A stretch of DNA of 64,000 bases from Candidatus Moraniibacteriota bacterium (GCA_037137555.1 JBAXKA010000002.1:3133-67132); one strand, 5' to 3'. Numbered from the stretch's first letter, positions 7,501-23,234 are shown. Notes: generated from the letters alone by a model not told the origin. Made by a program: numbers and translations.

Positions 7501-7781
7501 ATTTTATTTATTTTAATTTAATTTTTTTATATTATCTATTTATGCTTGTCATTGTCATTGGTCTTTATGCTTTATTTGTTTTTAGCTTCATTTTAGTTTC
7601 TTTTTTTGTCGCCTATCATCTTGTCAAATTTTCAATCAATCAAAAATTTAGTCGCACTTTTGTTTTGCTTTTCCTAGTTGTTTCATTTTTCCTATTACTT
7701 TCCAATTTAGTTTTATTTTTTGCAGTTGATTGGAATGCAACTATCGCCAATTTTATTCCTAATAATTTCACTACTTTTTAA
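7497..7781 (+). CDS. hypothetical small hydrophobic protein (possibly not coding)
   Basis: Phe/Leu/Ile-rich translation of a very AT-rich stretch. There is no recognisable motif. Confidence 0.25.
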
Positions 7782-7783
7782 TT

Positions 7784-8371
7784 ATGCAAACTTTCAATCA
7801 ATTTCATTTTAAAGGACAAAAGGACGGCGAAGAAATATTATTAGTCGTGCACAGGCATTGGTTTGATATTTTAAGCCAATTTTTTATTATCCTGATGATG
7901 CTTATTTTGCTTTTTAGTAGCCTAATTTTTGCCTCACCAATTTTAGATTTTTTCAATGGCAATGTCAGTATAAATTTTTTACTTTTTGCAGAAAATATTT
8001 TTTTTATTTTTATCTGGCTCTTTTTTTTCATCATTTGGATTGATTATTATTTTGATGTATGGATTGTGACAAATGAACGAATTGTTAATATTGAACAGTT
8101 TGGTCTTTTTTCTCGCGATGTCAGCGAATTAGAATTAGAAAATGTGCAAGATATAACTGTGGAAGTTTTGGGAATTATTCCAACTTTTCTTAACTATGGC
8201 CATCTCTATGTGCAAACGGCTGCTGAAAAAGAACGCTTTGTTTTTAAACATGTGCCAAATCCTTATACGATTAAAGATCTTGTGATGAACTTGCAAAAAA
8301 GCTATGAAAAAAAAGAAGCTAGCGATCTTGGTGCAGTCATTCGCAAAGAAATTCATGATGAATTGAATTAG
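7784..8371 (+). CDS. membrane protein with bacterial PH (bPH_2/DUF304-like) domain
   Basis: 'GEEILLVVHRHWFDIL' followed by two TM helices, then a 'WIVTNERIV' PH-like region. Confidence 0.55.
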   Translation: MQTFNQFHFKGQKDGEEILLVVHRHWFDILSQFFIILMMLILLFSSLIFASPILDFFNGNVSINFLLFAENIFFIFIWLFFFIIWIDYYFDVWIVTNERIVNIEQFGLFSRDVSELELENVQDITVEVLGIIPTFLNYGHLYVQTAAEKERFVFKHVPNPYTIKDLVMNLQKSYEKKEASDLGAVIRKEIHDELN

Positions 8372-9918: not shown

Positions 9919-11910
9919 GTGAAAAATAAAAATATAAAAACGCAATTATACCTATTTTTGCTTTTTTTAATAGTAGCTTTGTTTTGTTTTGGGGAAAAAA
10001 TATTCGCGCAAACTATTCCTGATGTTATTTTTAGTGCCGTTCAAACGAGTGGCTTATCATCAAACGATGATTTTATAGAACTTTACAACACTACCTGCGT
10101 AGCCATTGATTTATCCGACTGGAAAATAATAAAAAAAACAAAAACGGGAATAACAGAAACTCCAATTGGAACATTAAAAAAATCTATCCCTGCAAAAGGC
10201 TACTTTCTCTGGGAAAACATAAAAGATGGCTTGACTGGAGTTCCTGACTATACTACAAAAACATATTATTTATCTGATGATTATAGCATCGCTCTTTTTA
10301 ATAAAGATGAAAAACAAATAGACTCAATTACTTGGGGAATAAATCAAAATCCTTTTGCAAATACATTGACATATTCAAACAATCCCAAAAAATTAGAAAC
10401 ATTAAAAAGATCGTTGGATAATATTTTTTCAATTACAGAAAATTATTCACCAAAAGATTCTTCACTTACTGAAATAGGCGAAATTGCTTTATGTCAAAAA
10501 ACAGAACCCCCAAAAGAAGATTTGCTTGTTGAAAAAAATTATTCTGACAAAATAATAATCAACGAATTATTTCCGGCACCAACTGCTGATTCTGGAAATG
10601 AAGAATTTATTGAATTATATAATTTAAGCGAAAAAGATGAAAATCTTTCTGGTTGGATTTTGCGAGACTCATCAAAAACGGGAAAATATACTTTTCCTGA
10701 AAGCATAACAATAAAAACAAAAAGTTTTTTAGTTGTTGCTAAAAAAGATTTTGAATTTGCTCTGAATAATTCCGGTGGAGAAAAAGTTTTGCTTTTTAAT
10801 CCAGCTGAAAAAGAAATTTCTCGTGTAGAATATACTTCTTCTGCCAAAACTAATTATTCTTATGCTTTCAATGGAACAGCTTGGCAATGGACAAGCAAGG
10901 CTACTAAGGGAGCGGAAAATAAATTTGATGAAGTGCTTTCTGGGGAAATTAAAAAAGATAAAATAATTTATGTTAATATGTATGCTAATTTCGAAGCAAC
11001 GACTGATGATAAGGCCAAGCATTTTACTTGGAATTTTGGTGATGGGCATAAAAGTTATCTTAAAAAAACACGCCATAAATACGAAAAAACGGGAAGATAT
11101 TTAGCCTCGCTAAAAGTTACTGGCGAAGGTGCTGATAATTTAATTAATTTTGAAGTGGTAGTGGAAAAATTTGGCAAAGCCAAAGTGCAGATTATTTCGC
11201 TTTCACCAAATCCCAAAGGACTTGATTCTAAGAATGAATGGCTAGAAATTTTAAATGCGACTAAGAAAAAAATTGATCTTAAAGGCTGGAGCGTTGCCAC
11301 TGGCTGGAAAAATTTAGCCAATCATCCTATCACTAAAAAATTTATTTTAAAATCCGGTGAGGCAAGAAAATTGACACGCGATTTTTGCGCTTTTTCTTTG
11401 GGAAATAAACAAGCGAAAATTGAATTGCGTTATCCTGATGGAAAAGTAGCCGATAAAATTAAATATGATCGCAAAGATGATTCGATTGCGGAAGATGAAA
11501 TTTATCAAAAAGAAAACGCTGATTGGCAATGGCTGGAAACACAAAAAGTAATTGTTGAAGAAAAAGCTCCGGCATTGTCAGAAGAAATAATAGAAAAAAT
11601 AGAACCAAAAAAAGAAACTGTGCCAGAAGAAGAAAATAAAAATAATTTTCCAGAAATAAACCAAGAAAATGCTGATTTTGATTTGGCCGATTTGGGAAAA
11701 TATAGCGAAGATCCTATTTGGCGACAAAAACAAGCAAGACAAAATGCGCTACTTTTTGCGGGATCAAACATTTCACCAGAAAAAATATTATTTCAAAACC
11801 AAAGTCGAGTATTGGGAGCTTCTTCGATAATTATTCCTGCCACAAAAAATTCGGATCAATTCTGGAAAAGAATCAATGCTAAGTTGAATGAGTTTATTTG
11901 GTTTTTTTGA
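9919..11910 (+). CDS. secreted protein with three lamin-tail domains (LTD) and one PKD domain
   Basis: Signal peptide. LTD signatures 'NDDFIELYNTT...LSDWKI', 'GNEEFIELYNLS...LSGWILRD' and 'KNEWLEILNAT..IDLKGWSVA'. PKD-like 'HFTWNFGDGHKSYLKKTRHKYEKTGRYLASLKVTGEG'. Confidence 0.75.
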   Translation: MKNKNIKTQLYLFLLFLIVALFCFGEKIFAQTIPDVIFSAVQTSGLSSNDDFIELYNTTCVAIDLSDWKIIKKTKTGITETPIGTLKKSIPAKGYFLWENIKDGLTGVPDYTTKTYYLSDDYSIALFNKDEKQIDSITWGINQNPFANTLTYSNNPKKLETLKRSLDNIFSITENYSPKDSSLTEIGEIALCQKTEPPKEDLLVEKNYSDKIIINELFPAPTADSGNEEFIELYNLSEKDENLSGWILRDSSKTGKYTFPESITIKTKSFLVVAKKDFEFALNNSGGEKVLLFNPAEKEISRVEYTSSAKTNYSYAFNGTAWQWTSKATKGAENKFDEVLSGEIKKDKIIYVNMYANFEATTDDKAKHFTWNFGDGHKSYLKKTRHKYEKTGRYLASLKVTGEGADNLINFEVVVEKFGKAKVQIISLSPNPKGLDSKNEWLEILNATKKKIDLKGWSVATGWKNLANHPITKKFILKSGEARKLTRDFCAFSLGNKQAKIELRYPDGKVADKIKYDRKDDSIAEDEIYQKENADWQWLETQKVIVEEKAPALSEEIIEKIEPKKETVPEEENKNNFPEINQENADFDLADLGKYSEDPIWRQKQARQNALLFAGSNISPEKILFQNQSRVLGASSIIIPATKNSDQFWKRINAKLNEFIWFF

Positions 11911-12291: not shown

Positions 12292-12703
12292 ATGGACCCA
12301 CGAAAATTCAAAAATAAATACACAGCAAGCTCCGTCAGATTAAAAAATTATAATTACGCTCAAGACGGATTATATTTCGTGACGATTTGCACTAAATAAT
12401 CAATCATTTACTGGTGTTCTGACGCTGGGTAGAGACACATTGCAATGTGTCTCTACGGGTACTACACAACATAAAAATAAATTTGGCCCGCAAATAAATA
12501 ATTTATCATCAATTATTAGAGGATTTAAAGGTGCCGTAACAAAGCATACGAATATGTATTACCCACATTCCTTATGGCAACCAAAATTCTATGACCACAT
12601 AATCCGCAACGATGAAACATTGAATAAAATCCGTGAATATATAATCAAAAATCCGGAAATGTGGGAACGAAATAAAAATAATATAGAAAATATATTTATC
12701 TGA
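12292..12703 (+). pseudogene. degenerate IS200/IS605-family Y1 (RAYT/TnpA_REP-like) transposase: N- and C-terminal fragments, catalytic HUH core deleted
   Basis: N-fragment 'MDPRKFKNKYTASSVRLKNYNYAQDGLYFVTICTK*' (12292..12399). C-fragment 'IRGFKGAVTKHTNMYYPHSLWQPKFYDHIIRNDETLNKIREYIIKNPEMW' (within the 12440..12703 ORF). The HxH-containing middle is absent. Confidence 0.7.
12429..12456. repeat. 28-nt perfect palindrome GTAGAGACACATTGCAATGTGTCTCTAC (REP-like hairpin) at the deletion junction of the transposase pseudogene
   Basis: The palindrome was read directly in the sequence. Its outer arms GTAGAGAC/GTCTCTAC are shared with the element at 50662..50690. Confidence 0.8.
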
Positions 12704-12770: not shown

Positions 12771-13487
12771 ATGTCTGGACACTCACATTGGGCGGGAATA
12801 AAACAACGAAAAGGAATTAACGATGCCAAGCGCGGTAAAATTTTTACTAAATTTGGAAAGTTAGTCACGATTGCGGCACGAGATGGTGGCGGAAAATTAG
12901 ATGCTAATTTTCAGTTGCGTATGGCGGTTGATCGTGCGCGCGAAATGAATATGCCCAAAGAAAATATTGAAAGAGCGATCAAGCGAGGAACGGGTGAAAT
13001 TAAAGGTGCAATGATTGAAGAAATATTATATGAAGCAGTTGGACCAGGTGAATTAATGTTGCTTATTTCTTGCACAACAGATAATAAAAATCGCACAGTG
13101 TCTGAAGTAAAAACTATTTTAACAAAAAATAACTCCAAGCTCGGCGAAAAAGGCAGTGCTATGTGGAATTTTGAACAAGTTGGCAATATCAGCCTTGCTC
13201 TTGAAAATAAAGATGTGACGGAATTGGAAATGCTCGCGATTGAAGCTGGTGCTAAAGATACAATGCGAGAAGATGATTTGCTAAATATAATCACAGAAGT
13301 AAAAGATTTTGCTCGTGTGCGGGAAAGTCTTGAAAAAGAAAAATTAAAAATAATTGATTCTGGTTTAATTTATTTGCCAAAAAATACTATTACGGTCGAT
13401 GAAAAAGCTCGTGAAAGCTTTGAAAATCTCATGGAACTTTTGGATGATCATGATGATGTCAGTGAAATTTATAATAATTTAGCATAA
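12771..13487 (+). CDS. yebC: YebC/PmpR family DNA-binding transcriptional regulator
   Basis: 'MSGHSHWAGIKQRKG' N-terminus and overall YebC architecture. Confidence 0.9.
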   Translation: MSGHSHWAGIKQRKGINDAKRGKIFTKFGKLVTIAARDGGGKLDANFQLRMAVDRAREMNMPKENIERAIKRGTGEIKGAMIEEILYEAVGPGELMLLISCTTDNKNRTVSEVKTILTKNNSKLGEKGSAMWNFEQVGNISLALENKDVTELEMLAIEAGAKDTMREDDLLNIITEVKDFARVRESLEKEKLKIIDSGLIYLPKNTITVDEKARESFENLMELLDDHDDVSEIYNNLA

Positions 13488-13489
13488 CC

Positions 13490-13984
13490 ATGAAAATTTT
13501 AGGCATAGATCCTGGCACAGCCACAACTGGCTGGGGAATTATTGAAATACAGGGAGGCAAGCTTTTGCCTTTGGCTTATGGTCATATCAGCACTTCAAAA
13601 GATAACAGCGACGATGAAAGAATTCTAGAAGTTTCGCTAGATTTAGAAAAAATAATTAAAGAACATAAACCGGAAGAAGCTGCCATTGAAAGTTTGTTTT
13701 TTTTTAAAAACCAAAAAACCGTTATTCAAGTTGCTCAATCGCGTGGAGCAATTCTCTTGACTTTAAAGCAAAATGATGTTAAGGTTTTTAGTTACACTCC
13801 ACTCCAAGTTAAGCAAGCACTCACGGGTTACGGCCGAGCAGAAAAAAAGCAGATGCAACAAATGATTAAAAATATTCTGCATCTGGGCTCTGTGCCAAAA
13901 CCAGATGATGTCGCTGATGCACTGGCTATTGCTGTGTGTCATGCCAATAGTCGTGCCATAATTAGTTTAAGAAAAAACGCATGA
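13490..13984 (+). CDS. ruvC: crossover junction endodeoxyribonuclease RuvC
   Basis: 'MKILGIDPGTATTGWGIIE' and C-terminal 'DDVADALAIAVCHA'. Confidence 0.92.
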   Translation: MKILGIDPGTATTGWGIIEIQGGKLLPLAYGHISTSKDNSDDERILEVSLDLEKIIKEHKPEEAAIESLFFFKNQKTVIQVAQSRGAILLTLKQNDVKVFSYTPLQVKQALTGYGRAEKKQMQQMIKNILHLGSVPKPDDVADALAIAVCHANSRAIISLRKNA

Positions 13985-14646
13985 ATGAATTTAATTTTAG
14001 CATTAGCCCAATTTTAACTTTCTTTTTAAATACTGGCGTGCCATTTGAAACAATCAAATTAATTTTAATGCTTCCAATTATTGCCACTTTTATTGCTTTT
14101 TTGCGTCAGGTTGTGGGAATAAAAGCCTTTGGAATTTATACTCCCCTACTTATAACTTTTGCTTTTCTAGCGACTAATGGCATCAAATATGGCATCGCAA
14201 TTTTTATAATTATTATTCTTATTGGCATGCTGATGAGAATTGCACTTAAATCTTTTCGTTTGCTTTATCTTCCCCGCGTTGCCATCATGCTCACTATTGT
14301 TGCTTTGTCTATTTTAATTATGCTCGCTATTGGCGGAAGCTTAAAAAGAACTGGTCTGGCGTCTGTGTCAATTTTTCCAATCCTAATTATGATTACGCTA
14401 GTGGAAAAATTTATTGCTGTTCAAATTGAAAAAGGCGACCGAGCAGCGATCTTTCTAGCAACCGAGACTTTAGTTATTTCTATTTTAGGTTTTTATCTCG
14501 CTAGCTGGGAAACACTGATTCATTTTGTAACTTTTTATCCTTGGGTTATTCTGCTCACTATTCCGCTCAATGTTATACTTGGCAAATGGACCGGATTGCG
14601 TTTGAGTGAATATTTGCGTTTCGGAGAAATTATAAAAAGAAGTTAG
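13981..14646 (+). CDS. 7-TM integral membrane protein (7TM_transglut-like, without a transglutaminase domain)
   Basis: Seven predicted TM helices. The start overlaps the ruvC stop (ATGA). It is immediately followed by ATP-grasp genes, as in the RimK-like/7TM neighbourhoods described by Iyer et al. Confidence 0.6.
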   Translation: MNEFNFSISPILTFFLNTGVPFETIKLILMLPIIATFIAFLRQVVGIKAFGIYTPLLITFAFLATNGIKYGIAIFIIIILIGMLMRIALKSFRLLYLPRVAIMLTIVALSILIMLAIGGSLKRTGLASVSIFPILIMITLVEKFIAVQIEKGDRAAIFLATETLVISILGFYLASWETLIHFVTFYPWVILLTIPLNVILGKWTGLRLSEYLRFGEIIKRS

Positions 14647-14650
14647 GCCT

Positions 14651-16045
14651 ATGTTTGAATTTATTAAAAAAAGTCGGGGCATCTTAGGAATGAATTCTAG
14701 AAATTTGGAATATATCCGTCCCTATAATCGTGCTTGTGCCAAAAAATTGGCCGACAATAAATTGCTGAGCAAGAAAATTCTCAAAAAAAATGACATTGCT
14801 GTTCCAGCACTTATTGCTCAAATTAAAACACTGGAGGATTTGGATATTTTTGATTGGCACGCTTTGCCTGATAGTTTTGTCCTAAAACCTAATCGGGGAT
14901 TTGGTGGTGAGGGAATTATTGTGATTTATGGTCGCAAAAAAAATCGCACAGATGTTTGGGTGAAAGCTGATGGATCGAGTATTTCCATTGATGACCTTAA
15001 AAATCACACCAGAAATATTCTTGATGGATCATATTCATTGTCTGGTATTCCTGATATTGCTTTTTTTGAGGAACGCTTAAAACTTTTAAAACTTTTCAAG
15101 CCTTATGCTTTTAAAGGAATTCCGGATATTCGTATTATTGTTTTTAATAAAATGCCGATCATGGCAATGCTTCGCCTTCCTACTAAAGGCTCACACGGAA
15201 AAGCTAATTTAGCACAAGGTGCCATTGGTGTTGGTATCGACTTGGCTTCTGGCGTAACCACAACAGCAGTACTGGGCAAACAAAAAATTATTGAATATTT
15301 ACCAAACACAAAACTCTTGCTTTCTGGAATTAAAATTCCCTACTGGCTAGATATTTTAACTTTAGCTGTGCGATCGCAAGAAATTTCTGGATTAGGTTTT
15401 CTTGGTGTGGATATAGCGATTGATAAAGATCGCGGACCAGTAATTTTGGAACTTAATGCTCGGCCAGGATTAGCTATTCAAGTGGCTAATCTTGATGGAC
15501 TAAAAAGACGCTTAAAAAAAGCCGCTGGCATTAAAATCAAAACGACTAAAAAAGGCATTCGTGTTGGTATGGATCTTTTTGGAGGAGAAATTGAAGAAGA
15601 GTTGGAAGAAATTTCTGGAAAAAAAGTCATTGGCACTGTGGAAAAAATAAAACTAATCGGCAAGGACGGAAAAGAAATTGAAGTGGAAGCAAAAATCGAT
15701 ACTGGTGCTGACTGGTCATCAATTGATAATGAACTGGCCAAAAAATTAGGCTTCACGGAAACAATTGAAGAATTTGAAAAATTAAAAATGCCCTATGAAA
15801 ACTTAAAAAATTTAGACAAAGAAAAACGCTGGGAAATTTATAAAAATATTCCTCATATTGCCTCGACCATTCCAGTTAAGTCTTCCAACGGTTACACTTA
15901 TCGGCCAATGATTAATATCGAATTCGTTATGGACAGCATAGCCGTATCCACGAAAATAACTGTAATTGATCGTTCTCATATGCAATATCCTATGATTATC
16001 GGAAAAGTTAATTTGAAAAAGTTTTTAATTGATACAAGCAAATAA
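14651..16045 (+). CDS. RimK-family ATP-grasp ligase fused to a C-terminal retropepsin-like (PF05618 'Zn_protease'-type) domain
   Basis: ATP-grasp motifs 'LKPNRGFGGEGIIV', 'DIRIIVFN', 'GKANLAQGAIGVGIDL', 'ELNARPGL'. C-terminal 'AKIDTGADWSSI' and 'DRSHMQYPMIIGKVNLKKFLIDTS' match the retropepsin-like domain signature. Confidence 0.75.
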   Translation: MFEFIKKSRGILGMNSRNLEYIRPYNRACAKKLADNKLLSKKILKKNDIAVPALIAQIKTLEDLDIFDWHALPDSFVLKPNRGFGGEGIIVIYGRKKNRTDVWVKADGSSISIDDLKNHTRNILDGSYSLSGIPDIAFFEERLKLLKLFKPYAFKGIPDIRIIVFNKMPIMAMLRLPTKGSHGKANLAQGAIGVGIDLASGVTTTAVLGKQKIIEYLPNTKLLLSGIKIPYWLDILTLAVRSQEISGLGFLGVDIAIDKDRGPVILELNARPGLAIQVANLDGLKRRLKKAAGIKIKTTKKGIRVGMDLFGGEIEEELEEISGKKVIGTVEKIKLIGKDGKEIEVEAKIDTGADWSSIDNELAKKLGFTETIEEFEKLKMPYENLKNLDKEKRWEIYKNIPHIASTIPVKSSNGYTYRPMINIEFVMDSIAVSTKITVIDRSHMQYPMIIGKVNLKKFLIDTSK

Positions 16046-16049
16046 GCCT

Positions 16050-16949
16050 ATGCTCCTTATTCTCAGAAGTAAAAAAAGAATTTTAAAAAAAGTTAAAAAA
16101 TTCAACGAACTAATCTCTCATCATCTAAAAAACGCAGGGGTTGATTTTTCTTTTGCCAGTTTTGAAGACATTGAAATTTTTATGGAAACTGGCAAGATAA
16201 ATCTTCTTATTGATGACAAGCCACTGCAAAACTGGAAAACTATTTATCCACGAAAGGTTGGAGAATATCGAATATTAGCCTTTATTTTGGCAAACTTAAG
16301 CAAGAAAAATAAACTAATTTTTATTGATCGCTTTTTGGAAAATTCTTCCTCCACAACTAAAATTGTTCAGATGTTTCAATTTGCTCAAAATAAAATACCC
16401 ATTCCAAAAACATACTACACGACAACATATTCACGAAAGCAATTAAGCTCTGCCGTTAAGTTCTTAGGACTTCCTGTTGTAATAAAAAAATGCAACACAT
16501 CGCAAGGATCAGGAGTGTTTCTAGCTAAAACCGTTTCAGAATTAAACAAATCAATAAAAGCTCTTTTGAAAAGCAAAAATAATGGGTCTATTTTTCTCCA
16601 AGAATTTATTCCAAATGATTTTGAATATAGAATATTTGTGACCGGAAATAAAATTGGGGCCGCCGAAAAAAAGATCAGAACGAAGGCTGGCGAATTTAGA
16701 AATAATGTTCACCTGGGAGCCAGAGAAGAGTTTGTGAAAATATCTGATGTTAAAAAAAATATTCTCAAAATAGCTCTAAAAGCTTCGCACATTTCCAATA
16801 TTCAGGTCTCGGGTGTAGATATTGTTGAAGCAAATGGACGAATAGTTGTGTTTGAAGCAAATAGTTGCCCCGGATTAACTTTTGATGAAAAAATATCGCC
16901 AGAATTAAAAAGCCTAGCTAACTACCTCGAAGAATGCGAAAAAAAATAA
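16050..16949 (+). CDS. RimK-like alpha-L-glutamate ligase (ATP-grasp)
   Basis: Colinear with E. coli RimK: 'LPVVIKKCNTSQGSGVFLAKT', 'DFEYRIFVTGNKIGAAEKKIRTKAGEFRNNVHLGA', 'VSGVDIVEANGRIVVFEANSCPGL'. The ORF is open from 16029. Confidence 0.85.
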   Translation: MLLILRSKKRILKKVKKFNELISHHLKNAGVDFSFASFEDIEIFMETGKINLLIDDKPLQNWKTIYPRKVGEYRILAFILANLSKKNKLIFIDRFLENSSSTTKIVQMFQFAQNKIPIPKTYYTTTYSRKQLSSAVKFLGLPVVIKKCNTSQGSGVFLAKTVSELNKSIKALLKSKNNGSIFLQEFIPNDFEYRIFVTGNKIGAAEKKIRTKAGEFRNNVHLGAREEFVKISDVKKNILKIALKASHISNIQVSGVDIVEANGRIVVFEANSCPGLTFDEKISPELKSLANYLEECEKK

Positions 16950-17872
16950 TTATGTATTATGGACAAGAAAAAACCGGACCAGATCCGTTTTTTAATTTTG
17001 GCCACAAAAAAAGTGTCTATTATTATTTTTTCGAATATGGCAAAAAAATGGGCTTCGATATGTTTTTAGCGAGTGGTAAAAAAAATTATTTAGGCGAGTT
17101 GAATTTTAAAAATCCTCTTTTTTTTGATGGATTAAAATTCAAGCCTACGCAAGAGGCTATTCAAGTTGACGCCGTTTATGACAGAAGTGGCGGATTGAAT
17201 TTTCCCTCACCAGAAATTAAAAAAATACTTAATAACTTAAAATTTAAAACGCTCTGTAATAATAAAAATAGTATGTATGTTTTATTGGGAAAGTTTATGC
17301 CCAAAAGTATTGAAATAAAAAATCAGACTGAATTAAAAACAGCCTTACTAAACTTTCCTGCAAAAAAAATTGCTGTCTTGAAACCCGCAGCTGGACTTGG
17401 TGGAAAAGGCATTGTAATTGACCTTCCTCAAAATTTAGCCAAAGTAATCTTAGAAGAAAAAAAGGAATATGTTTTGCAACAATTCGTGGACACTTCGCAT
17501 GGCATAAAAAATATTACCAAAGAAAAACATGATTTAAGAATTATTATTATTGATGGAGAAATAATTATGGCTAGCGTTAGAACGCCAAAAGAAGGTAGTT
17601 ACTTGGCAAATGTTGCTCAGGGCGGAAAAATACAAGAAATTGATATTAAAAAAATTCCAGCAAAAGCACTTGTGCTAACAAAAAAAATTCAGAAAATTCT
17701 CGACAAAAAATATAATTACCCGTTATATTCTATCGATCTTGGATTTGAAAATGAACAGCCTTATGTTTTTGAATTAAATGATCAAATTGGCTTTCCTTCA
17801 GAAAAAATGCCTGGACATAAAATTTTTATGCATAAATTAATAAAATCATTAGAAAAAATAGCTAACTCTTAA
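16934..17872 (+). CDS. ATP-grasp ligase, RimK/GshB-like paralog
   Basis: 'VLKPAAGLGGKGIVIDL' and 'DLRIIIIDGEIIMASVRTPKEGSYLANVAQGGKIQEI', similar to the RimK core. Confidence 0.7.
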   Translation: MRKKIIMYYGQEKTGPDPFFNFGHKKSVYYYFFEYGKKMGFDMFLASGKKNYLGELNFKNPLFFDGLKFKPTQEAIQVDAVYDRSGGLNFPSPEIKKILNNLKFKTLCNNKNSMYVLLGKFMPKSIEIKNQTELKTALLNFPAKKIAVLKPAAGLGGKGIVIDLPQNLAKVILEEKKEYVLQQFVDTSHGIKNITKEKHDLRIIIIDGEIIMASVRTPKEGSYLANVAQGGKIQEIDIKKIPAKALVLTKKIQKILDKKYNYPLYSIDLGFENEQPYVFELNDQIGFPSEKMPGHKIFMHKLIKSLEKIANS

Positions 17873-17884
17873 TAAATAAATATT

Positions 17885-18856
17885 ATGCAAAAAAATTCAG
17901 CTATCATTAAAAAAATTGTTCGTGAGATGGGTGGAACAATTGAAAAAATAGTGCCAGAGAGAAGTTGTTTTTTAATTAAAATTGCTGGTGAAAAAATATT
18001 ATTTTCCAGAAAATTTCAAATTGCTAGCGACTTTTTTTCCGGCAGAGCTTTGACTGCCCATAAAGATTTAACTTATGTTGCTTTAAAAGAAAACGATCTT
18101 CCAACTCCAGGCTCTGTTTGTTTTTATAAAAAATCTATTAGCACAAAAAACATAGCAACCGAACTTGCTTTGTTGAATTATCCAATCGTAATAAAAGATG
18201 CTAACGGCTCAAATAGCAAAGGCGTTTTTGTTAATATTAAAAATTTAGTTGAAGCAAAAGAAATAATCTTTCAAGAAATAAATAATTTTCCCTACTTAAT
18301 TGCTCAGGAAATGGTTTTTGGCAAAGAATTTCGCGTGCTAGTTTTGGGAAATAAAGTTATCGGCGTTTTAGAGATGATTCCTTCAAGAGTTTTTGGAAAT
18401 GCCAAAAATACTATCCGCGAGTTAATCGAAATAAAGCAACTGAAAATGAGCCGGAAAACTGCTTGCGATATTACATTAAATAAAATATTAGAACTTCAGG
18501 GGTTTAATCTTGAAAGTATTTTAAAAAAAGATCAGACCGTTTTTATAAAAAATAATGCTTGCTTGGCTGAAGGAGGTGAAACAAAAGATGCAACCAGTTT
18601 AATAAATCTAAATATAGAAATTCTTTGTGTCAAAGCCGCAAAAGCAACTGGAAAAAATCTGGCTGGAATTGATATTATTTGTGATGATATTAGTAAGAAT
18701 CCTAGCGAGCAAGCGTTTAGTATTTTAGAAATAAATGGCAAGCCTGATCTCTATATTCACTACAACCCCACTCACGGAAAAACTCAAAATGTGATAAAAC
18801 CAATTATTGATTTCATTTTAAGCTTAAAAAAGACCGGAATTTCTTCGGGTTATTGA
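17885..18856 (+). CDS. ATP-grasp ligase, cyanophycin-synthetase-N-domain/RimK-related paralog
   Basis: 'YPIVIKDANGSNSKGVFV' and 'GKEFRVLVLGNKVIGVLEMIPSRVFGNAKNTIRELIE', similar to the CphA ATP-grasp region. Confidence 0.65.
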   Translation: MQKNSAIIKKIVREMGGTIEKIVPERSCFLIKIAGEKILFSRKFQIASDFFSGRALTAHKDLTYVALKENDLPTPGSVCFYKKSISTKNIATELALLNYPIVIKDANGSNSKGVFVNIKNLVEAKEIIFQEINNFPYLIAQEMVFGKEFRVLVLGNKVIGVLEMIPSRVFGNAKNTIRELIEIKQLKMSRKTACDITLNKILELQGFNLESILKKDQTVFIKNNACLAEGGETKDATSLINLNIEILCVKAAKATGKNLAGIDIICDDISKNPSEQAFSILEINGKPDLYIHYNPTHGKTQNVIKPIIDFILSLKKTGISSGY

Positions 18857-18942: not shown

Positions 18943-21513
18943 ATGCAAAATATTTTTTCACCTAAAAATTCTAGCTATCCTAAAAAAGCTAGATTTAGCA
19001 TGCCCTGGAAAAAACTTTTTATTTTTTTTGGTATTTTAGTTGGCACTGGAATTGTGACTGCTGTTGGTGTTTTTATTTATTTTTCCAAAGACTTGCCTGA
19101 CCCAGGAAAAATAAACACGCGTTTTTTGGCGGAATCAACAAAAATCTATGATCGCACTGGCGAGCATTTGCTTTATGAAGTTCATGGTGAAGAAAAAAGA
19201 ACAAAAATTGCTTTTGCGGAAATGCCTGAAGTTTTAAAATTTGCCACAATCAGCCTAGAAGATCAAGATTTTTACAATCATTACGGAATCAAGTTAAGTT
19301 CTATTTTGCGTTCCATTTTCAAAGATCTTATCAATCTTGGCAAAGCTCAAGGCGGATCAACCATCACCCAACAATTTGTCAAAAATTCCCTACTCACCAA
19401 TGAAAAAACGCTAATCAGAAAAGTTAAAGAAGTTATTCTTTCGCTCGAACTAGAAACAAAATTTTCTAAAGATGAAATTTTAGCCATGTATCTCAATGAA
19501 ATTCCCTATGGCTCAAACGCCTATGGCATTGAAGCGGCCGCTCAAACTTTTTTTGGCAAACCGGCCAGAGAATTAACACTTGATGAAGCGGCTTTAATTT
19601 CTGCTTTGCCTCAGGCAACTGCCTATTATTCTCCGTATGGTTCACATCTTGATGCGTTAATTGGACGAAAAAACTTCGCCCTAAAAACGATGGCTCGTTT
19701 GGGTTATATTACTCAAGAACAATCCGATGAAGCAATAAACACGATGACACTTAATAAAATAAAACCACAAAAAAATATTTTTGCCGCACCGCATTTCGTA
19801 ATGTATATTAAAGATTATTTACAACAAAAATATGGCGATAAGGCCGTGGAGCAAGGTGGACTAAAAGTTTATACCACGCTCGATTGGGACAAACAACAAC
19901 TCGCTGAAAAAGTTGTCAAAGAAGGTGCCGAAAAAAATGCAAAAACATATGGAGCGGGCAATGCTGGTCTCGTAGCAATGGATCCAAAAACGGGACAAAT
20001 TCTTGCGATGGTTGGGAGTAAGGATTATTTTGCGGAAAGTGAACCGAAAGGTTGTACGCAAGGAAAAAATTGTGTCTTTGAACCAAATGTAAATATTGCC
20101 ACTTCGCTTTTGCAACCAGGATCTTCTTTTAAGCCCTATGTTTATCTCACTGCTTTTGAAAAAGGTTTCACACCGGAAACAAATATTTGGGATGCAGATA
20201 CCAATTTCAGCACCGAGGATGGAAAAATCTATAATCCAAAAAATTACGATGGCAAAAATAGCGGTCTCTTGCAAATGAAAGATGCGCTGGCAAGATCCTT
20301 GAATGTTCCTGCCGTTAAAACACTTTATTTAGCTGGTGTAAAAAATTCTGTTGCTACTGCAAAAAAAATGGGAATTACAACGCTCAATGAACCAGCTCGT
20401 TATGGACTTTCTTTAGTGCTTGGTGGCGGTGAAGTAAAATTATTGGATCATGTTAATGCTTTTTCTACTTTTGCCACTGGCGGAATTCGTCATAATAAAA
20501 CAGCGATTTTGCGTATTGAAGATAGTAAAAATAATATACTTGAAAAATATATTGCTAATCAGGGAGAAAAAGTTATTGAAGAAAAATATATTGCCATGAT
20601 TGATTATATTCTTTCTACAAATAGTCTTCGTGCTCCAGTTTTTGGCGACAAAAATGCTCTTAGTTTTGAGAATCGTCCAGTGGCTGCAAAAACAGGAACA
20701 ACAAATGAGTGGCGTGATGGTTGGACGATGGGTTATACGCCATCATTAACTGTGGGCGTTTGGGCTGGCAATAACGATCATTCCACTATGAAACAAGGTG
20801 CTGATGGAATTTTTGTGGCGTCTCCAATTTGGCGTAGCTTTATGGATGAAGCTCTAAAAAACACAGCCACTGAAAATTTTCCTAAATATGAACCAGAAGA
20901 AACTGGCAAGGATATTCTTGATGGCAAACTAGAAATAAAAAAAGAACTTAAGGTTTGTGAGATTCCCGACGAAAATGATAAATATTGCCTCGTTAATGAT
21001 TTTTGCCCGGAAAATAAAATTAAGAAAAAAAAGTTTTCTGACGCGCATAGTGTTTTATATTACATCAATAAAGATGATGTCAGAGGAGATGCGCCAAAAG
21101 ATCCCAAGAGCGATCCTCAATTTGAAAGCTGGGAAAAAGGTATAAAAAGTTGGCTGAAGGATCAAGATTATTCCACAGACAGCGCACCAAAAGATGAATG
21201 TAAAGAAAAAGATTTTTCTGATTATAAGCCAAGTGTAGAAATAAAATCACCATCAAATGGCGAAACGATAATCGCCACTTCTTTCACGATTTCTGTTAAA
21301 ATTTCCGCTCCCTATGGAGTTAAAAATTCTACAATCAGTGTTAATGGCAATAATATCTCATCTAGTAATAATGATTCTTTTAGTAATAACTACATAATTC
21401 CAGATGACAAAAAAAATTCCAGCTTAAATATAAAAGTTGAAACTACTGATAATAATGGCAACACAGATTCAAAAAGTATTACAGTTAATACTAATGTTCC
21501 GGCGATACCTTAA
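18943..21513 (+). CDS. class A penicillin-binding protein (PBP1A; glycosyltransferase + transpeptidase) with C-terminal extension
   Basis: N-terminal TM. GT51 motifs 'EDQDFYNHYGI' and 'GGSTITQQFVKN'. Transpeptidase 'SSFKP' and 'KTGTTNE'. Confidence 0.9.
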   Translation: MQNIFSPKNSSYPKKARFSMPWKKLFIFFGILVGTGIVTAVGVFIYFSKDLPDPGKINTRFLAESTKIYDRTGEHLLYEVHGEEKRTKIAFAEMPEVLKFATISLEDQDFYNHYGIKLSSILRSIFKDLINLGKAQGGSTITQQFVKNSLLTNEKTLIRKVKEVILSLELETKFSKDEILAMYLNEIPYGSNAYGIEAAAQTFFGKPARELTLDEAALISALPQATAYYSPYGSHLDALIGRKNFALKTMARLGYITQEQSDEAINTMTLNKIKPQKNIFAAPHFVMYIKDYLQQKYGDKAVEQGGLKVYTTLDWDKQQLAEKVVKEGAEKNAKTYGAGNAGLVAMDPKTGQILAMVGSKDYFAESEPKGCTQGKNCVFEPNVNIATSLLQPGSSFKPYVYLTAFEKGFTPETNIWDADTNFSTEDGKIYNPKNYDGKNSGLLQMKDALARSLNVPAVKTLYLAGVKNSVATAKKMGITTLNEPARYGLSLVLGGGEVKLLDHVNAFSTFATGGIRHNKTAILRIEDSKNNILEKYIANQGEKVIEEKYIAMIDYILSTNSLRAPVFGDKNALSFENRPVAAKTGTTNEWRDGWTMGYTPSLTVGVWAGNNDHSTMKQGADGIFVASPIWRSFMDEALKNTATENFPKYEPEETGKDILDGKLEIKKELKVCEIPDENDKYCLVNDFCPENKIKKKKFSDAHSVLYYINKDDVRGDAPKDPKSDPQFESWEKGIKSWLKDQDYSTDSAPKDECKEKDFSDYKPSVEIKSPSNGETIIATSFTISVKISAPYGVKNSTISVNGNNISSSNNDSFSNNYIIPDDKKNSSLNIKVETTDNNGNTDSKSITVNTNVPAIP

Positions 21514-21810: not shown

Positions 21811-22971
21811 CTAGTTTTTTATAGGCATGATAATATAAGTAAAATCAATTAAGACAGCGCTAGTGCTTTCAGAAAATTCTCGAATCGCCACTGGCGATGA
21901 ATCACTATTGGCCAATAGGGCGATCTTATCTGTTGTCACAACATTAATTCCTTCTGTTAGATATTTCAAATTAAAAACAATCTCTTGTGACTCACCAAGA
22001 ACTTCAAATTTGATTTCTGTTGAGTTTTCCCCCACCTCAACGCTCCTAGTATCAATTAATATATTTTTCTTCTCTGCGTCAATTTTTAAAACTATTTCCT
22101 TGGATTTTTCACTCACAAAAACTCCTGCCATTTTTAAGGCGTTTTGAAGAACTCGCTTATCACCAATTATTGTTGTTTTATATGTTTGTGGCATTATGTG
22201 TTTATATTCTGGATATTTTCCATTAATCAAGCGAGAAACTATCTTCATTCCACCGAGCTCAAAGAAAATCTGACCATCCTCGATAAATATTTCAATAATA
22301 GTGTCGGAAATATTATTAGAAATAATTCGATTTAATTCTGTTAATGTGTTTATTGGTATAATAATATTTTTAGTTTTCTCTTTTAGTTCGTTATATTTTT
22401 CTCGATTAACCTCTTTTTCACTTATTTTTAAAATATATTCCGATAAACGAAAGCCATCTGTGGCCGCAAAAAATAATTCACTCTCACCAAAAACAATATT
22501 CATACCAGTCAATTCTTGCCGTGCCTCATTGTGCGCAATAGCAATAAGTAGTTTAGAAAAAATATCTTTTAATTTATTGATTTCAATTTTAAATATAAAT
22601 TCTGTGCTTTTTTGTGGAATTAAAGGAAAATCCTCAGCAGAAAAACTTTTTATCTTAGCTTTAGTTTGCCCGTTTGTTATTTTTAAGTTTTGATCTACTG
22701 TCTCTATGTCCATATTTTCTTCTTCAGAGAGATTTGTAGAAAAATTACTTAGTAATTTCGCAGGAACCGTGATCACGCCTTCTTGTTCAACTTTTGCTCC
22801 GATTTTAATTTCAATTCCAATTTCTAAATTAGTCGCTGCTATTTTCAAATAACCTGCATGCGCTTCTAGTAGAATATTATTTAAAATCGGTAATGTATTT
22901 TGTTTAGATACAATTCGTTCAGAATTGATAATAGCTTTTTTAAAATTCTCTTGTGTGCAGATTAGTTTCAT
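21811..22971 (-). CDS. dnaN: DNA polymerase III beta sliding clamp
   Basis: 'MKLICTQENFKKAI...LPILNNILLEA', three-domain length, downstream of dnaA. Confidence 0.9.
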   Translation of the reverse strand: MKLICTQENFKKAIINSERIVSKQNTLPILNNILLEAHAGYLKIAATNLEIGIEIKIGAKVEQEGVITVPAKLLSNFSTNLSEEENMDIETVDQNLKITNGQTKAKIKSFSAEDFPLIPQKSTEFIFKIEINKLKDIFSKLLIAIAHNEARQELTGMNIVFGESELFFAATDGFRLSEYILKISEKEVNREKYNELKEKTKNIIIPINTLTELNRIISNNISDTIIEIFIEDGQIFFELGGMKIVSRLINGKYPEYKHIMPQTYKTTIIGDKRVLQNALKMAGVFVSEKSKEIVLKIDAEKKNILIDTRSVEVGENSTEIKFEVLGESQEIVFNLKYLTEGINVVTTDKIALLANSDSSPVAIREFSESTSAVLIDFTYIIMPIKN

Positions 22972-23234
22972 AGGAGTTATATTATATTTTATTAATTAAA
23001 TTAACTTATTATTGTTATTATAAATGGGATTAATGTGGATAACTAGTTTTTAAGGCTTTAATGTTGAGAAATAATGCAATATAAACTGTGGATAATTATT
23101 ATTTTTTAACTAAGATAAGTTGGGTGATTTTTTAGCTAAATAATTAAGTGTAATTATTATACTAAAATAACAAACAGTCTGTGATAGTTAATTGAGGGTG
23201 TTTTTAGTGGGTATATAAACAAGTTATTAACAGT
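22972..23234. promoter_or_regulatory. probable chromosomal replication origin (oriC) in the dnaA-dnaN intergenic region
   Basis: Two perfect DnaA boxes TGTGGATAA (= TTATCCACA on the minus strand) at 23034..23042 and 23087..23095. The flanking sequence is an AT-rich unwinding-like tract, next to dnaA/dnaN and rpmH-rnpA-yidC-jag. Confidence 0.7.

What the first reader, a model, noticed from the sequence alone, without database searches (positions are those of the whole stretch)
13981..18856. 7TM membrane protein plus four consecutive RimK-family ATP-grasp ligases (one fused to a retropepsin-like domain), translationally coupled to ruvC
Directly after yebC-ruvC there is a 7-TM protein, with the ruvC stop and the 7TM start overlapping as ATGA. 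Four ATP-grasp paralogs follow in the same orientation, separated by 4- to 16-nt gaps or overlaps. The first carries a C-terminal 'AKIDTGA...DRS..YPMIIGK' retropepsin-like domain. The second aligns colinearly with E. coli RimK. The fourth resembles the cyanophycin-synthetase ATP-grasp module. A 7TM + RimK-like ATP-grasp + retropepsin triad has been predicted computationally as a peptide-tagging or peptide-synthesis module and is essentially uncharacterised. An expansion to four amidoligases suggests stepwise, non-ribosomal assembly of a peptide or poly-amino-acid product at the membrane, in a reduced genome that can afford little.
Basis: partly seen in the sequence, partly recalled or inferred. 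Interest (0 to 1): 0.78.

Follow-up and report, generated by a model that had tools for sequence, protein, structure and literature searches.

The report
Rlo-type membrane peptide-ligase module in Moranbacteria
A tiny-genome candidate-phyla bacterium carries a strongly conserved pair of genes (a seven-helix membrane protein, and an ATP-dependent amino-acid ligase fused to a retrovirus-like protease) related to the recently named Pseudomonas Rlo envelope-stress system, followed by a set of extra ligase genes that differs from species to species.

Summary
All five ORFs, the ruvC/7TM ATGA overlap, the domain assignments and intact catalytic motifs are confirmed. The interpretation needs revising.

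(1) The triad is no longer uncharacterised. It is the rloABC system of Pseudomonas (2025 genetics and structures: hypo-osmotic tolerance, cell shape, β-lactam sensitivity; RloA cleaves poly-Glu).

(2) The window is from Candidatus Moranbacteria (CPR) and holds a distinct variant:
- the 7TM protein lacks the inactive transglutaminase domain;
- the retropepsin is fused, without a signal peptide, to the C-terminus of the RloC-type ligase.

(3) Only 7TM plus the fusion form a conserved core. In 80 species-level genomes they sit between yebC-ruvC and PBP1a, and they are usually the best-conserved genes there.

(4) The three further ligases are one state of a variable slot. It spans 167 nt to 6 kb and holds 0-6 genes. 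An ATP-grasp gene is present in 69 of 70 slots, drawn from about 15 subfamilies, sometimes with Mur-ligase-like, MATCAP, GT4, GNAT or YdjC genes. G2-G3 behave as a locus-dedicated pair. G4 relatives also occur alone elsewhere.

The most likely function is ribosome-independent building and trimming of an acidic peptide at the membrane for the envelope, diversified by the cassette. It is a new variant of a known, mechanistically unsolved system.

The parts
12771..13487 (+). yebC (conserved upstream flank, not part of the module proper)
   Evidence: Pfam TACO1_YebC_N and Transcrip_reg. Upstream of ruvC in most of the 80 species loci.
13490..13984 (+). ruvC. Conserved upstream neighbour; its stop overlaps the 7TM start (ATGA).
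   Evidence: Pfam RuvC 6.2e-50. ATGA overlap read directly. ruvC precedes the 7TM gene in at least 71 loci, but the gap varies from about -18 to +401 nt.
13981..14646 (+). RloB-like 7TM membrane protein, 7TM-only form (221 aa, no transglutaminase domain)
   Evidence: PF14402 2.3e-32. The NCBIfam RloB model matches only positions 312-507 of 508, at 89.6 bits against a cut-off of 900. AF2 model has pLDDT 88.4 with seven long TM helices and short C-terminal helices. Invariant residues cluster in the C-terminal tail: G201, G205, R207, E210, R213, F214. Median 64% identity across species.
14651..16045 (+). G1: RloC-type ATP-grasp ligase fused to a C-terminal retropepsin (464 aa, no signal peptide)
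   Evidence: ATPgrasp_ST 2.5e-68. TIGR02291 scores 295.7 bits against a cut-off of 314.2. RloA/RimB-like domain over residues 322-460. 557 species genomes encode a relative, and the best 80 are full-length fusions at 60-94% identity. Most conserved gene of the block.
14669..15526 (+). G1 ATP-grasp domain (residues 7-292)
   Evidence: TIGR02291 alignment 7-292. K79, the G83-G88 loop, D254, E267 and N269 are invariant in alignment A1.
15581..15619 (+). Acidic linker GGEIEEELEEISG (residues 311-323), found only in the fused form
   Evidence: Invariant in A1. Unfused RloC-like proteins end at '...LFG', just before it. The L163 and L165 fusions have looser acidic linkers.
15614..16030 (+). G1 retropepsin domain (residues 322-460); catalytic D350-T-G-A at 15698-15709
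   Evidence: Sequence match to the RloA structure 9G58 at 1.3e-8, with K348/D350/R418/R441 aligned to RloA K46/D48/R114/R137 (PMC12239564). AF2 pLDDT about 85. Foldseek hits to Ddi1 RVP, HIV-1 protease, RloA 9G58/9G59 and 2PMA.
16050..16949 (+). G2: RimK-like ATP-grasp ligase (299 aa; alternative TTG start at 16029). First gene of the variable cassette.
   Evidence: RimK Pfam 6.9e-30. TIGR00768 scores 103 bits against a cut-off of 143. Pseudomonas RimK 7QYS 1e-18. Catalytic motifs are invariant among 11 orthologs. Orthologs are present in 10 of the 69 other slots analysed, and 9 of those 10 are followed by G3.
16952..17872 (+). G3: divergent ATP-grasp ligase (306 aa; alternative ATG start at 16934), partner of G2
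   Evidence: GSH-S_ATP, RimK, ATPgrasp_ST and YheCD at about 1e-8 to 1e-10. PDB match to RimK only at 0.07. The family has only 154 clusters at E<=1e-5. Three of three distant homologs lie in the same locus after a RimK-like gene.
17885..18856 (+). G4: stand-alone ATP-grasp ligase of the cyanophycin-synthetase G-domain / GshF / Ngg type (323 aa)
   Evidence: TIGR02068 positions 210-472 at 1.2e-48, scoring 165.9 bits against a cut-off of 850. CphA1 7LG5 residues 215-479 at 1.9e-31. Orthologs fill the slot in 14 of the 69 other slots analysed, and relatives also occur alone in unrelated contexts.
18943..21513 (+). Class A PBP (PBP1a-like). Conserved downstream boundary of the variable slot.
   Evidence: Transgly 7.6e-56 and Transpeptidase 1e-23. 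Downstream of the slot in 69 of the 80 species loci, and also in L165 and L168-L170.

Best explanation
This is the Moranbacteria (CPR/Patescibacteria) form of the Rlo module.

Core: a two-gene unit. The first gene encodes an RloB-like seven-helix membrane protein stripped of its extracellular domain. The second encodes a cytoplasmic RloC-type ATP-grasp ligase fused at its C-terminus to a RimB/RloA-type retropepsin.

Inferred mechanism:
1. The ligase domain uses ATP to add amino acids, most likely glutamate or another acidic residue, one at a time to a free carboxylate, without a ribosome.
2. The fused dimeric aspartic protease, which keeps the basic substrate channel that binds poly-Glu in RloA, trims or recycles the chain. 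This controls chain length, as RimB does for RimK.
3. The 7TM protein, whose invariant residues lie in its predicted cytoplasmic C-terminal tail, docks the enzyme at the membrane and passes the product to, or anchors it in, the envelope.
4. These organisms are thought to have no outer membrane and hence no periplasm (general knowledge). A fused intracellular protease therefore replaces the secreted RloA of Pseudomonas.

The three further ligases (G2 RimK-like, its dedicated partner G3, and G4 of the CphA-G-domain type) are this genome's version of an exchangeable cassette. The cassette extends or decorates the same product and so makes it lineage-specific.

Shown here: homology, architecture, intact catalytic residues, core co-conservation, and cassette variability.
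Inferred: the substrate, the direction of transport, the physical 7TM-ligase contact, and the envelope role.
For: Homology:
- 7TM_transglut, TIGR02291 and RloA models match.
- The retropepsin domain matches the RloA crystal structure 9G58, and K348/D350/R418/R441 align with RloA K46/D48/R114/R137. The last two are required for poly-E cleavage and for complementation (PMC12239564).
- The retropepsin fold is confirmed by Foldseek.

Genetics elsewhere:
- rloB or rloC deletion rescues the triple rloA mutant. RloB/RloC therefore make or export something that the protease must remove (PMC12239564).
- RimB stimulates poly-alpha-Glu synthesis by RimK, and a RimB-RimK hybrid is active (PMC11957791).

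Core conservation:
- 7TM and G1 are adjacent in every locus that has upstream DNA.
- One or the other is the best-conserved of five syntenic genes in 47 of 54 loci.
- 7TM identity tracks G1 identity (Spearman rho 0.74).
- The 7TM + ATPgrasp_ST pair persists in distant CPR lineages, with the protease fused (L163, L165), encoded separately (L166) or absent nearby (L167).

Cassette:
- 69 of 70 slots hold at least one ATP-grasp gene, from about 15 clusters.
- Some slots add a second ligase/peptidase pairing (MATCAP, fused to an ATP-grasp in L165), Mur-ligase-like genes, GT4, GNAT or YdjC. This fits an envelope-directed, amide-linked product.
- All four ligases keep invariant catalytic motifs.
- G4 identity is uncoupled from G1 identity (rho 0.26). 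In L086, G3 and G4 are 73% identical to the window while G1 is 64%. This fits cassette exchange.

7TM model: confident, helical and transporter-like.
Against: - No product, acceptor or amino-acid specificity is known for any RloC-type ligase, including in Pseudomonas.
- The ATP-grasp part of the G1 model was poor (pLDDT below 60), so no domain arrangement can be read from it.
- Synteny among the 80 loci is within one class and could partly reflect shared ancestry. The block lies about 5 kb from dnaA, in a generally conserved origin region.
- G4 relatives work in other contexts, so G4 need not act on the same product.
- The acidic linker is not a contiguous poly-Glu. RimB needs at least 5-6 contiguous Glu and RloA at least 8. 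No self-substrate is therefore evident.
Confidence: 0.55

Rival explanations
1. First reader's model. The five genes form one fixed assembly line in which four amidoligases act in sequence to build a defined peptide at the membrane.
For: Same strand, 2-12 nt spacing and no internal terminator. All four ligases are catalytically intact. The same G2-G3-G4 order recurs in metagenome contigs L085-L087.
Against: The R-Y-C combination is found in 1 of the 70 slots analysed, and that slot is the window's own. L008, L011 and L012 carry the same three genes in a different order. Many species have only one accessory ligase, and L082 has none. The G4 family also occurs alone in unrelated contexts.
Confidence: 0.15
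2. Reversible C-terminal tagging of a protein, such as ribosomal protein S6 or a membrane protein, rather than synthesis of a free or exported peptide. The ligases add residues to a protein C-terminus and the peptidases remove them, as in RimK/RimB or the tubulin TTL/MATCAP cycle.
For: G2 is the closest relative of RimK here. The protease is cytoplasmic like RimB, not secreted like RloA (sequence). MATCAP-family carboxypeptidases occur in 7 of 70 slots and are fused to an ATP-grasp in L165. Clusters c0 and c6 give TTL hits.
Against: This does not explain the obligatory 7TM partner. No rpsF or acidic-tailed candidate lies in the window. G2 falls below the RimK family and equivalog cut-offs. GT4, YdjC and Mur-ligase-like neighbours point to envelope chemistry.
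Confidence: 0.25
3. The core and/or the cassette modify peptidoglycan precursors, either the stem peptide or the cross-bridge. ATP-grasp D-Asp ligases in enterococci (from memory) and ATP-grasp/Mur-type ligases in pseudomurein synthesis (PMC11915815, abstract only) are precedents.
For: The slot is bounded by a class A PBP in 69 of the 80 species loci and in more distant loci. Mur-ligase-like genes occur in some slots, with two copies in L163. Rlo mutants show defects in cell shape, β-lactam sensitivity and hypo-osmotic tolerance, which the authors link to peptidoglycan (PMC12239564).
Against: Adjacency to PBP1a may be inherited origin-region synteny. No NCBIfam hit to known cross-bridge ligases appeared. 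The retropepsin's basic channel suggests a long acidic substrate rather than a short stem peptide.
Confidence: 0.2
4. G4, with or without the others, makes a cyanophycin-like storage polymer.
For: G4 aligns with the CphA1 G domain at 1.9e-31. Mur-ligase-like (M-domain-like) genes accompany G4-type genes in L007 and L012.
Against: G4 covers only the G domain, residues 215-479 of 879. It has no N or M domain and scores 165.9 bits against a cut-off of 850. No Mur-ligase-like gene is in this window's cluster.
Confidence: 0.05
5. A ribosomally made peptide (graspetide-type RiPP) cross-linked by ATP-grasp enzymes, with the protease removing a leader and the 7TM protein exporting the product.
For: The combination of ATP-grasp, protease and membrane protein superficially resembles RiPP clusters.
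Against: There is no room for a precursor gene: intergenic gaps inside the block are 2-12 nt, and the gap to PBP1a is 86 nt. The core is syntenic and housekeeping-like across species rather than sporadic. The ligase families are RloC, RimK and CphA types.
Confidence: 0.03

Closest known systems
rloABC operon of Pseudomonas aeruginosa/fluorescens (RloA retropepsin, RloB inactive-transglutaminase-7TM protein, RloC ATP-grasp; Lormand et al. 2025, PMC12239564)
   Same: The same three protein families are linked: PF14402 7TM, TIGR02291/ATPgrasp_ST ligase, and PF05618 retropepsin with DTG and the basic residues K46/R114/R137. The ligase is cytoplasmic. The biochemical product is unknown in both.
   Different: The 7TM protein lacks the periplasmic inactive transglutaminase domain; sister CPR lineages carry PKD domains instead. 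The protease is fused to the ligase C-terminus with no signal peptide, so it is intracellular. The gene order is B-C/A. The host is a CPR bacterium, although RloB was reported as 96% proteobacterial. The core is followed by a variable ATP-grasp cassette.
RimK-RimB and the RimBK hybrid (Little et al. 2025, PMC11957791)
   Same: A ligase and a retropepsin in one cytoplasmic system, sometimes in one polypeptide. The protease is specific for Glu runs and modulates poly-alpha-Glu synthesis. G2 is RimK-like.
   Different: In RimBK the protease is N-terminal and the ligase is a true RimK. Here the protease is C-terminal and the ligase is of the RloC/ATPgrasp_ST type. RimK systems have no 7TM partner. 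An S6 target is not shown here.
Cyanophycin synthetase CphA1 (G domain) and the related GshF and Ngg ATP-grasp modules
   Same: G4 aligns along the whole G (ATP-grasp) domain with catalytic motifs intact.
   Different: G4 is a stand-alone 323-aa protein without the N (primer-binding) and M (Mur-ligase-like, Arg-adding) domains.
Computationally predicted amidoligase/peptide-tagging systems (Iyer, Abhiman, Burroughs & Aravind 2009, Mol Biosyst; cited from memory and; the paper is not held)
   Same: Association of ATP-grasp ligases with 7TM-transglutaminase proteins, aspartyl peptidases, DUF1704/MATCAP peptidases and sugar-transfer genes.
   Different: As far as I could find, the CPR fusion architecture and the species-variable cassette between the core and PBP1a are not described.

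Membership tests
Rlo system (RloA/RloB/RloC) | An RloC-type ATP-grasp (TIGR02291 / PF14397) encoded next to a PF14402 7TM protein | tested here: met
   TIGR02291 3.4e-88 (295.7 bits, just under the 314.2 cut-off). PF14397 2.5e-68. PF14402 2.3e-32. The genes are 4 nt apart.
Rlo system (RloA/RloB/RloC) | RloB carries an N-terminal periplasmic inactive transglutaminase domain | tested here: not met
   The protein is 221 aa. The NF052267 model matches only positions 312-507 of 508, at 89.6 bits against a cut-off of 900. No Transglut_core hit.
Rlo system (RloA/RloB/RloC) | RloA is a separate, secreted (signal-peptide) retropepsin | tested here: not met
   The retropepsin is residues 322-460 of the ligase polypeptide. 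The N-terminus MFEFIKKSRGILGMN has no signal peptide or TM segment.
Rlo system (RloA/RloB/RloC) | Retropepsin catalytic D-T-G and the basic residues that bind poly-Glu (RloA K46, R114, R137) | tested here: met
   K348, D350-T-G, R418 and R441 align with them in the 9G58 alignment. D350, T351, G352, R418 and R441 are invariant, and residue 348 is K or R, across 15 orthologs.
Rlo system (RloA/RloB/RloC) | Role in hypo-osmotic tolerance, cell shape and β-lactam tolerance | not testable with these tools
   This needs genetics in a cultivable host. Only contextual hints are available (PBP1a adjacency).
RimK (S6:glutamate ligase) | Score above the family or equivalog cut-off | tested here: not met
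   G2: TIGR00768 103.3 bits against 143.4; PRK10446 72.2 against 331. G1, G3 and G4 score lower.
RimK (S6:glutamate ligase) | Ribosomal protein S6 with a Glu-Glu C-terminus as acceptor | not tested
   No rpsF lies in the 64-kb window. The rest of the genome is not available.
RimBK hybrid | RimB domain N-terminal to a RimK domain | tested here: not met
   The order here is ligase then protease, and the ligase is of the ATPgrasp_ST/RloC type.
Cyanophycin synthetase CphA1 | N, G and M domains in one enzyme | tested here: not met
   G4 matches only positions 210-472 of 862 in TIGR02068, at 165.9 bits against a cut-off of 850. There is no Mur_ligase domain in the window's cluster.
ATP-grasp superfamily (all four ligases) | ATP-binding Lys with Gly-rich loop, hinge Glu/Gln, conserved Arg, and the Mg-binding D...E.N triad | tested here: met
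   These are present in G1-G4 and invariant among 15, 11, 12 and 15 orthologs respectively.
Graspetide-type RiPP cluster | Adjacent short precursor-peptide gene | tested here: not met
   There is no intergenic space (2-12 nt) and no conserved small ORF in the block.
Anti-phage defence systems (PADLOC) | Match to a defence-system model | tested here: not met
   None of the five proteins has a hit at E<=1e-3.

The most novel reading that the evidence does not exclude
Moranbacteria and related CPR lineages carry, next to their main peptidoglycan synthase and close to the replication origin, a peptide-based counterpart of an O-antigen or capsule locus. An invariant Rlo-type core (a membrane platform plus a ligase-protease) starts and trims an amide-linked chain. 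A recombining cassette of ATP-grasp ligases, with occasional Mur-type ligases, carboxypeptidases and glycosyltransferases, writes a lineage-specific non-ribosomal peptide onto the cell envelope. This could matter for attachment to hosts or for evading phages and hosts.
Probability: 0.25. Interest if true: 0.8.

Novelty: new variant of a known kind. Interest (0 to 1): 0.6.

Why it matters
The Rlo system is clinically relevant in Pseudomonas (β-lactam tolerance, biofilm, osmotic survival), yet its chemistry is unknown. The CPR form is a minimal natural version. It has no transglutaminase domain, the protease and ligase are in one chain, and there is probably no periplasm. This narrows what the core must do and gives simple constructs for biochemistry.

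In organisms with roughly 1-Mb genomes, the two core genes are conserved as well as, or better than, ruvC, yebC and PBP1a. That argues for an important and so far unrecognised envelope function in a large uncultivated lineage.

The species-variable ligase cassette, if it acts on the same product, would be a new way of generating surface or cell-wall diversity without ribosomes or NRPS enzymes.

Tried and rejected
- Acidic linker GGEIEEELEEISG as an autoprocessing site or pseudo-substrate. It is invariant in close relatives and specific to the fused form. It is only loosely acidic in L163 and L165 and never has the 5-8 contiguous Glu needed by RimB/RloA. Kept only as a minor idea.
- Structure of G1. 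The AF2 model with 15 sequences gave mean pLDDT 54.6. Only the retropepsin domain is usable.
- Defence system: no PADLOC hits.
- RNA elements in 11.8-25.5 kb: no Rfam hits at E<=0.1.
- rpsF in the window: none.
- Recent paralog expansion: rejected, since the ligases are no more than 28% identical.
- Iyer et al. 2009 (PMC3268129) could not be read.
- Conserved translational coupling to ruvC: rejected, since the gaps vary from about -18 to +401 nt.

Full report
OBSERVATION.

The ORF table shows, on the + strand:
- yebC 12771-13487
- ruvC 13490-13984
- a 221-aa membrane protein, 13981-14646
- four ATP-grasp genes: G1 14651-16045; G2 16050-16949 (or from TTG 16029); G3 16952-17872 (or from ATG 16934); G4 17885-18856
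- a class A PBP, 18943-21513

The ruvC stop and the 7TM start share ATGA. The other junctions are TAG-GCCT-ATG, TAA-GCCT-ATG, TAA-TT-ATG and a 12-nt gap. No convincing terminator lies inside the block.

- The 7TM protein matches 7TM_transglut at 2.3e-32.
- G1 matches ATPgrasp_ST at 2.5e-68 and TIGR02291 at 3.4e-88. Its C-terminal domain (residues 322-460) matches Zn_protease/RimB-like/RloA models.
- G2 matches RimK at 6.9e-30. It also matches Pseudomonas RimK 7QYS at 1e-18 and E. coli RimK 4IWX at 1.4e-15.
- G3 gives weak RimK and GSH-S matches. Its only PDB match is RimK at 0.07.
- G4 matches the cyanophycin-synthetase G domain: TIGR02068 at 1.2e-48, and CphA1 7LG5 residues 215-479 at 1.9e-31.

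The four ligases are no more than 28% identical to one another. They are four distinct subfamilies, not a recent duplication. The ATP-binding Lys with its Gly loop, the hinge residue, the Arg and the D..E.N metal triad are present in all four. These motifs are invariant among 11-15 orthologs of each.

SOURCE AND WHAT IS KNOWN.

Identical or near-identical proteins are annotated as Candidatus Moranbacteria/Moraniibacteriota (Parcubacteria, CPR) MAGs.

NCBIfam names the families RloA and RloB, and the literature search found the source. In P. aeruginosa the rloABC operon encodes three proteins: a secreted retropepsin (RloA), an inactive-transglutaminase-7TM inner-membrane protein (RloB), and a cytoplasmic ATP-grasp protein (RloC).
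- Loss of all three RloA paralogs causes hypo-osmotic lethality, aberrant cell shape, β-lactam sensitivity and biofilm defects.
- Deleting rloB or rloC rescues these defects.
- RloA cleaves runs of at least 8 Glu. K46, R114 and R137 line a basic channel.
- The product of RloC is unknown.

The related RimB protease trims poly-Glu tails and stimulates poly-alpha-Glu synthesis by RimK. A RimB-RimK hybrid, with the protease N-terminal, is active. A Shewanella rloB homolog affects membrane-vesicle production.

The triad is thus no longer 'essentially uncharacterised', although its chemistry is still open.

HOW THE WINDOW'S VERSION DIFFERS.

(i) The 7TM protein matches only the last 196 positions of the 508-position RloB model. 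It has no extracellular domain. Its AF2 model is confident (pLDDT 88.4, pTM 0.84), with seven long helices and two short C-terminal helices.

Across 32 homologs down to 31% identity, the invariant residues are P32, G46, G71, P187, G205, R207, E210 and F214. The nearly invariant ones include G201, L206 and R213. Most of these lie in the C-terminal tail. By the positive-inside rule and by RloB's topology, that tail should be cytoplasmic. I infer that it is a docking surface for the ligase.

(ii) The retropepsin is fused to the C-terminus of the ligase, and the protein has no signal peptide. The protease therefore works inside the cell.
- It aligns with the RloA crystal structure 9G58 at 1.3e-8. 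K348/D350/R418/R441 fall on RloA K46/D48/R114/R137.
- Its AF2 domain has pLDDT of about 85. It hits Ddi1 RVP, HIV-1 protease, RloA 9G58/9G59 and 2PMA.
- A substrate that is a long acidic peptide is therefore the best guess.

(iii) Unfused RloC-like proteins end at '...LFG'. The fusion adds an acidic linker (GGEIEEELEEISG) that is invariant in close relatives and looser in L163 and L165. It lacks the contiguous Glu run that RimB/RloA need. I do not think self-cleavage is indicated.

COMPARATIVE GENOMICS.

A scan of one genome per GTDB species found 557 genomes with a G1 relative. The best 80 are all full-length fusions at 60-94% identity.

Mapping the window's proteins onto these loci shows yebC-ruvC-7TM-G1 ... 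PBP1a on one strand almost everywhere.

Median identities to the window:

| Gene | Median identity |
|---|---|
| G1 | 66% |
| 7TM | 64% |
| ruvC | 64% |
| PBP1a | 61% |
| yebC | 54% |

G1 or 7TM is the best-conserved of the five in 47 of 54 complete loci. 7TM identity tracks G1 identity (Spearman rho 0.74). The ruvC-to-7TM gap, however, runs from about -18 to +401 nt. The ATGA coupling is therefore a local feature.

The stretch between G1 and PBP1a is a variable slot. It is 167 nt to 6.0 kb long and holds 0-6 genes. Clustering and Pfam scans of cluster representatives give these counts over 70 slots:

| Content | Slots |
|---|---|
| At least one ATP-grasp gene (about 15 clusters at 38% identity) | 69 |
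| G3-like ATP-grasp | 45 |
| G4-like ATP-grasp | 34 |
| RimK-like ATP-grasp | 31 |
| GT4 glycosyltransferases | 13 |
| MATCAP/DUF1704 metallocarboxypeptidases | 7 |
| YdjC | 4 |
| GNAT | 3 |
| Mur-ligase-like genes | 3 |

The window's order (RimK-like, G3-like, G4-like) occurs in only one of the 70 slots, the window's own. L008, L011 and L012 have orthologs of all three in the order G4-G2-G3. Metagenome contigs L085-L087 share the window's order.

G2 and G3 travel as a pair in 9 of the 10 other slots that have a G2 ortholog.

The G3 family is tiny, with 154 clusters at E<=1e-5 among 5.8 billion. All three distant members that I looked up (46-53% identity) lie in this same locus directly after a RimK-like gene.

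G4 behaves differently. Of 80 metagenome loci found with a G4 alignment, roughly 35 have G1 immediately upstream. About 40, at 44-52% identity, lie in unrelated and mutually different contexts with no 7TM or G1 within 7 kb.

G4 identity is also uncoupled from G1 identity (rho 0.26):
- Relatives with G1 at 82-91% have G4 at only 56-57%.
- L086, with G1 at 64%, has G3 and G4 at 73%.

This fits cassette replacement by recombination between the conserved flanks.

BEYOND MORANBACTERIA.

An exhaustive HMMER search with the 7TM protein found 1601 representatives at E<=1e-3. The nearest long relatives (510-530 aa, 50-56% identical in the 7TM part) carry N-terminal PKD domains, not a transglutaminase domain.

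Their contexts are:
- L163/L164: yebC-ruvC-PKD-7TM-fusion (503 aa)-RimK-like, followed in L163 by two Mur-ligase-like genes and three GT4 genes; L164 ends before these.
- L165: yebC-ruvC-7TM-fusion (440 aa), then an 891-aa MATCAP + ATP-grasp fusion, a tRNA synthetase and PBP1a.
- L166: PKD-7TM, an unfused ATPgrasp_ST and a separate retropepsin, with no ruvC. This contig reads UGA as sense.
- L167: 7TM + ATPgrasp_ST with no protease nearby.

The invariant unit across CPR is therefore 7TM + RloC-type ligase. The protease is usually present, either fused or separate. The extracellular domain of the 7TM protein is interchangeable or absent.

MECHANISM (INFERENCE).

Four lines of evidence combine:
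- The Pseudomonas epistasis shows that the B/C product is harmful unless the protease removes it.
- RimB/RimK biochemistry shows a ligase working with a trimming protease.
- The basic channel of the protease domain is conserved.
- The 7TM partner has a conserved cytoplasmic tail.

The most economical model is ATP-driven, ribosome-independent extension of an acidic peptide at the inner face of the membrane. The fused protease controls chain length or turnover. The 7TM protein hands the product to the envelope.

CPR bacteria are generally thought to lack an outer membrane (my knowledge). A soluble periplasmic RloA would not be retained in such a cell. This rationalises the fusion.

The accessory ligases would extend or branch the chain. 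In other species, Mur-type ligases, MATCAP peptidases, GT4, GNAT and YdjC genes would play similar parts. The G2-G3 pair is dedicated to the locus. G4 is a more promiscuous module of the type that adds an amino acid to a peptide carboxylate (CphA G domain, GshF, Ngg).

I cannot decide whether the acceptor is a free peptide, a protein C-terminus or a peptidoglycan/lipid-linked precursor. The constant PBP1a neighbour and the Rlo phenotypes favour an envelope or cell-wall target. The cytoplasmic protease and the MATCAP/TTL-like genes keep protein tagging alive as a rival.

VERDICT.

It needs correcting on three points:
- The system is already named and genetically studied.
- The 'four-ligase expansion' is a variable cassette rather than a fixed pathway.
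- The coupling to ruvC is not conserved.

I found no paper that describes the CPR architecture or the cassette. I rate it a new variant of a known kind, with interest 0.6.

Noticed in passing
L166:3034-6763: A low-GC (27%) contig in which the 7TM, ATP-grasp and retropepsin genes read through 7-13 in-frame stops under table 11 but are open under tables 25 and 4. This fits a UGA-recoded CPR lineage of the Gracilibacteria/SR1 type. Its 743-aa 7TM protein has a hyper-acidic N-terminal region of about 200 aa (long Glu/Asp runs) before the PKD domain.
   Followed up: partly
L165:3443-6118: An 891-aa fusion of a MATCAP (DUF1704) metallocarboxypeptidase with an ATP-grasp domain, directly after the core. 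This is a second ligase + peptidase pairing in one polypeptide. Stand-alone MATCAP genes occur in 7 of 70 slots.
   Followed up: partly
L170:7001-8392 (P0423): A G3 ortholog fused to a C-terminal GNAT acetyltransferase domain (463 aa). Separate GNAT genes occur in 3 of 70 slots.
   Followed up: no
window 21811-24614 (- strand) and beyond: dnaN (21811-22971) and dnaA (23235-24614) lie just downstream on the opposite strand. rpmH-rnpA-yidC follow on the identical contig L001. The whole locus is therefore within about 5 kb of the probable replication origin. The same layout is seen in L168-L170.
   Followed up: partly
window 9919-11910: A 663-aa protein with three Lamin-Tail domains and a PKD domain lies upstream of the block. 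Similar LTD/PKD proteins sit upstream of yebC in L164 and L168.
   Followed up: no
window 12440-12703: An 87-aa ORF in the 860-nt gap before yebC has no Pfam hit. From memory, its sequence resembles the C-terminal part of REP-associated/IS200-like tyrosine transposases, so it may be a gene remnant. This was not verified.
   Followed up: no
L116, L125, L127-L130 (around 7001-7948): Solitary G4-family ligases (about 50% identical to G4) recur next to a protein that looks to me like a rubrerythrin (167 aa, no family scan run), a 403-aa protein of unknown function and one that looks like an ABC-F-type ATPase (483 aa, no family scan run). This is a different, partly conserved neighbourhood with no 7TM or G1.
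   Followed up: partly
L027:2787-3644: The ATP-grasp gene right after the core appears split into two ORFs (187 + 133 aa). This could be a frameshift, a pseudogene or an assembly error.
   Followed up: no
window 14644-14653 and 16043-16052: The 7TM/G1 and G1/G2 junctions use the same 10-nt motif, TA(G/A)-GCCT-ATG. This may be chance or a shared re-initiation context.
   Followed up: no
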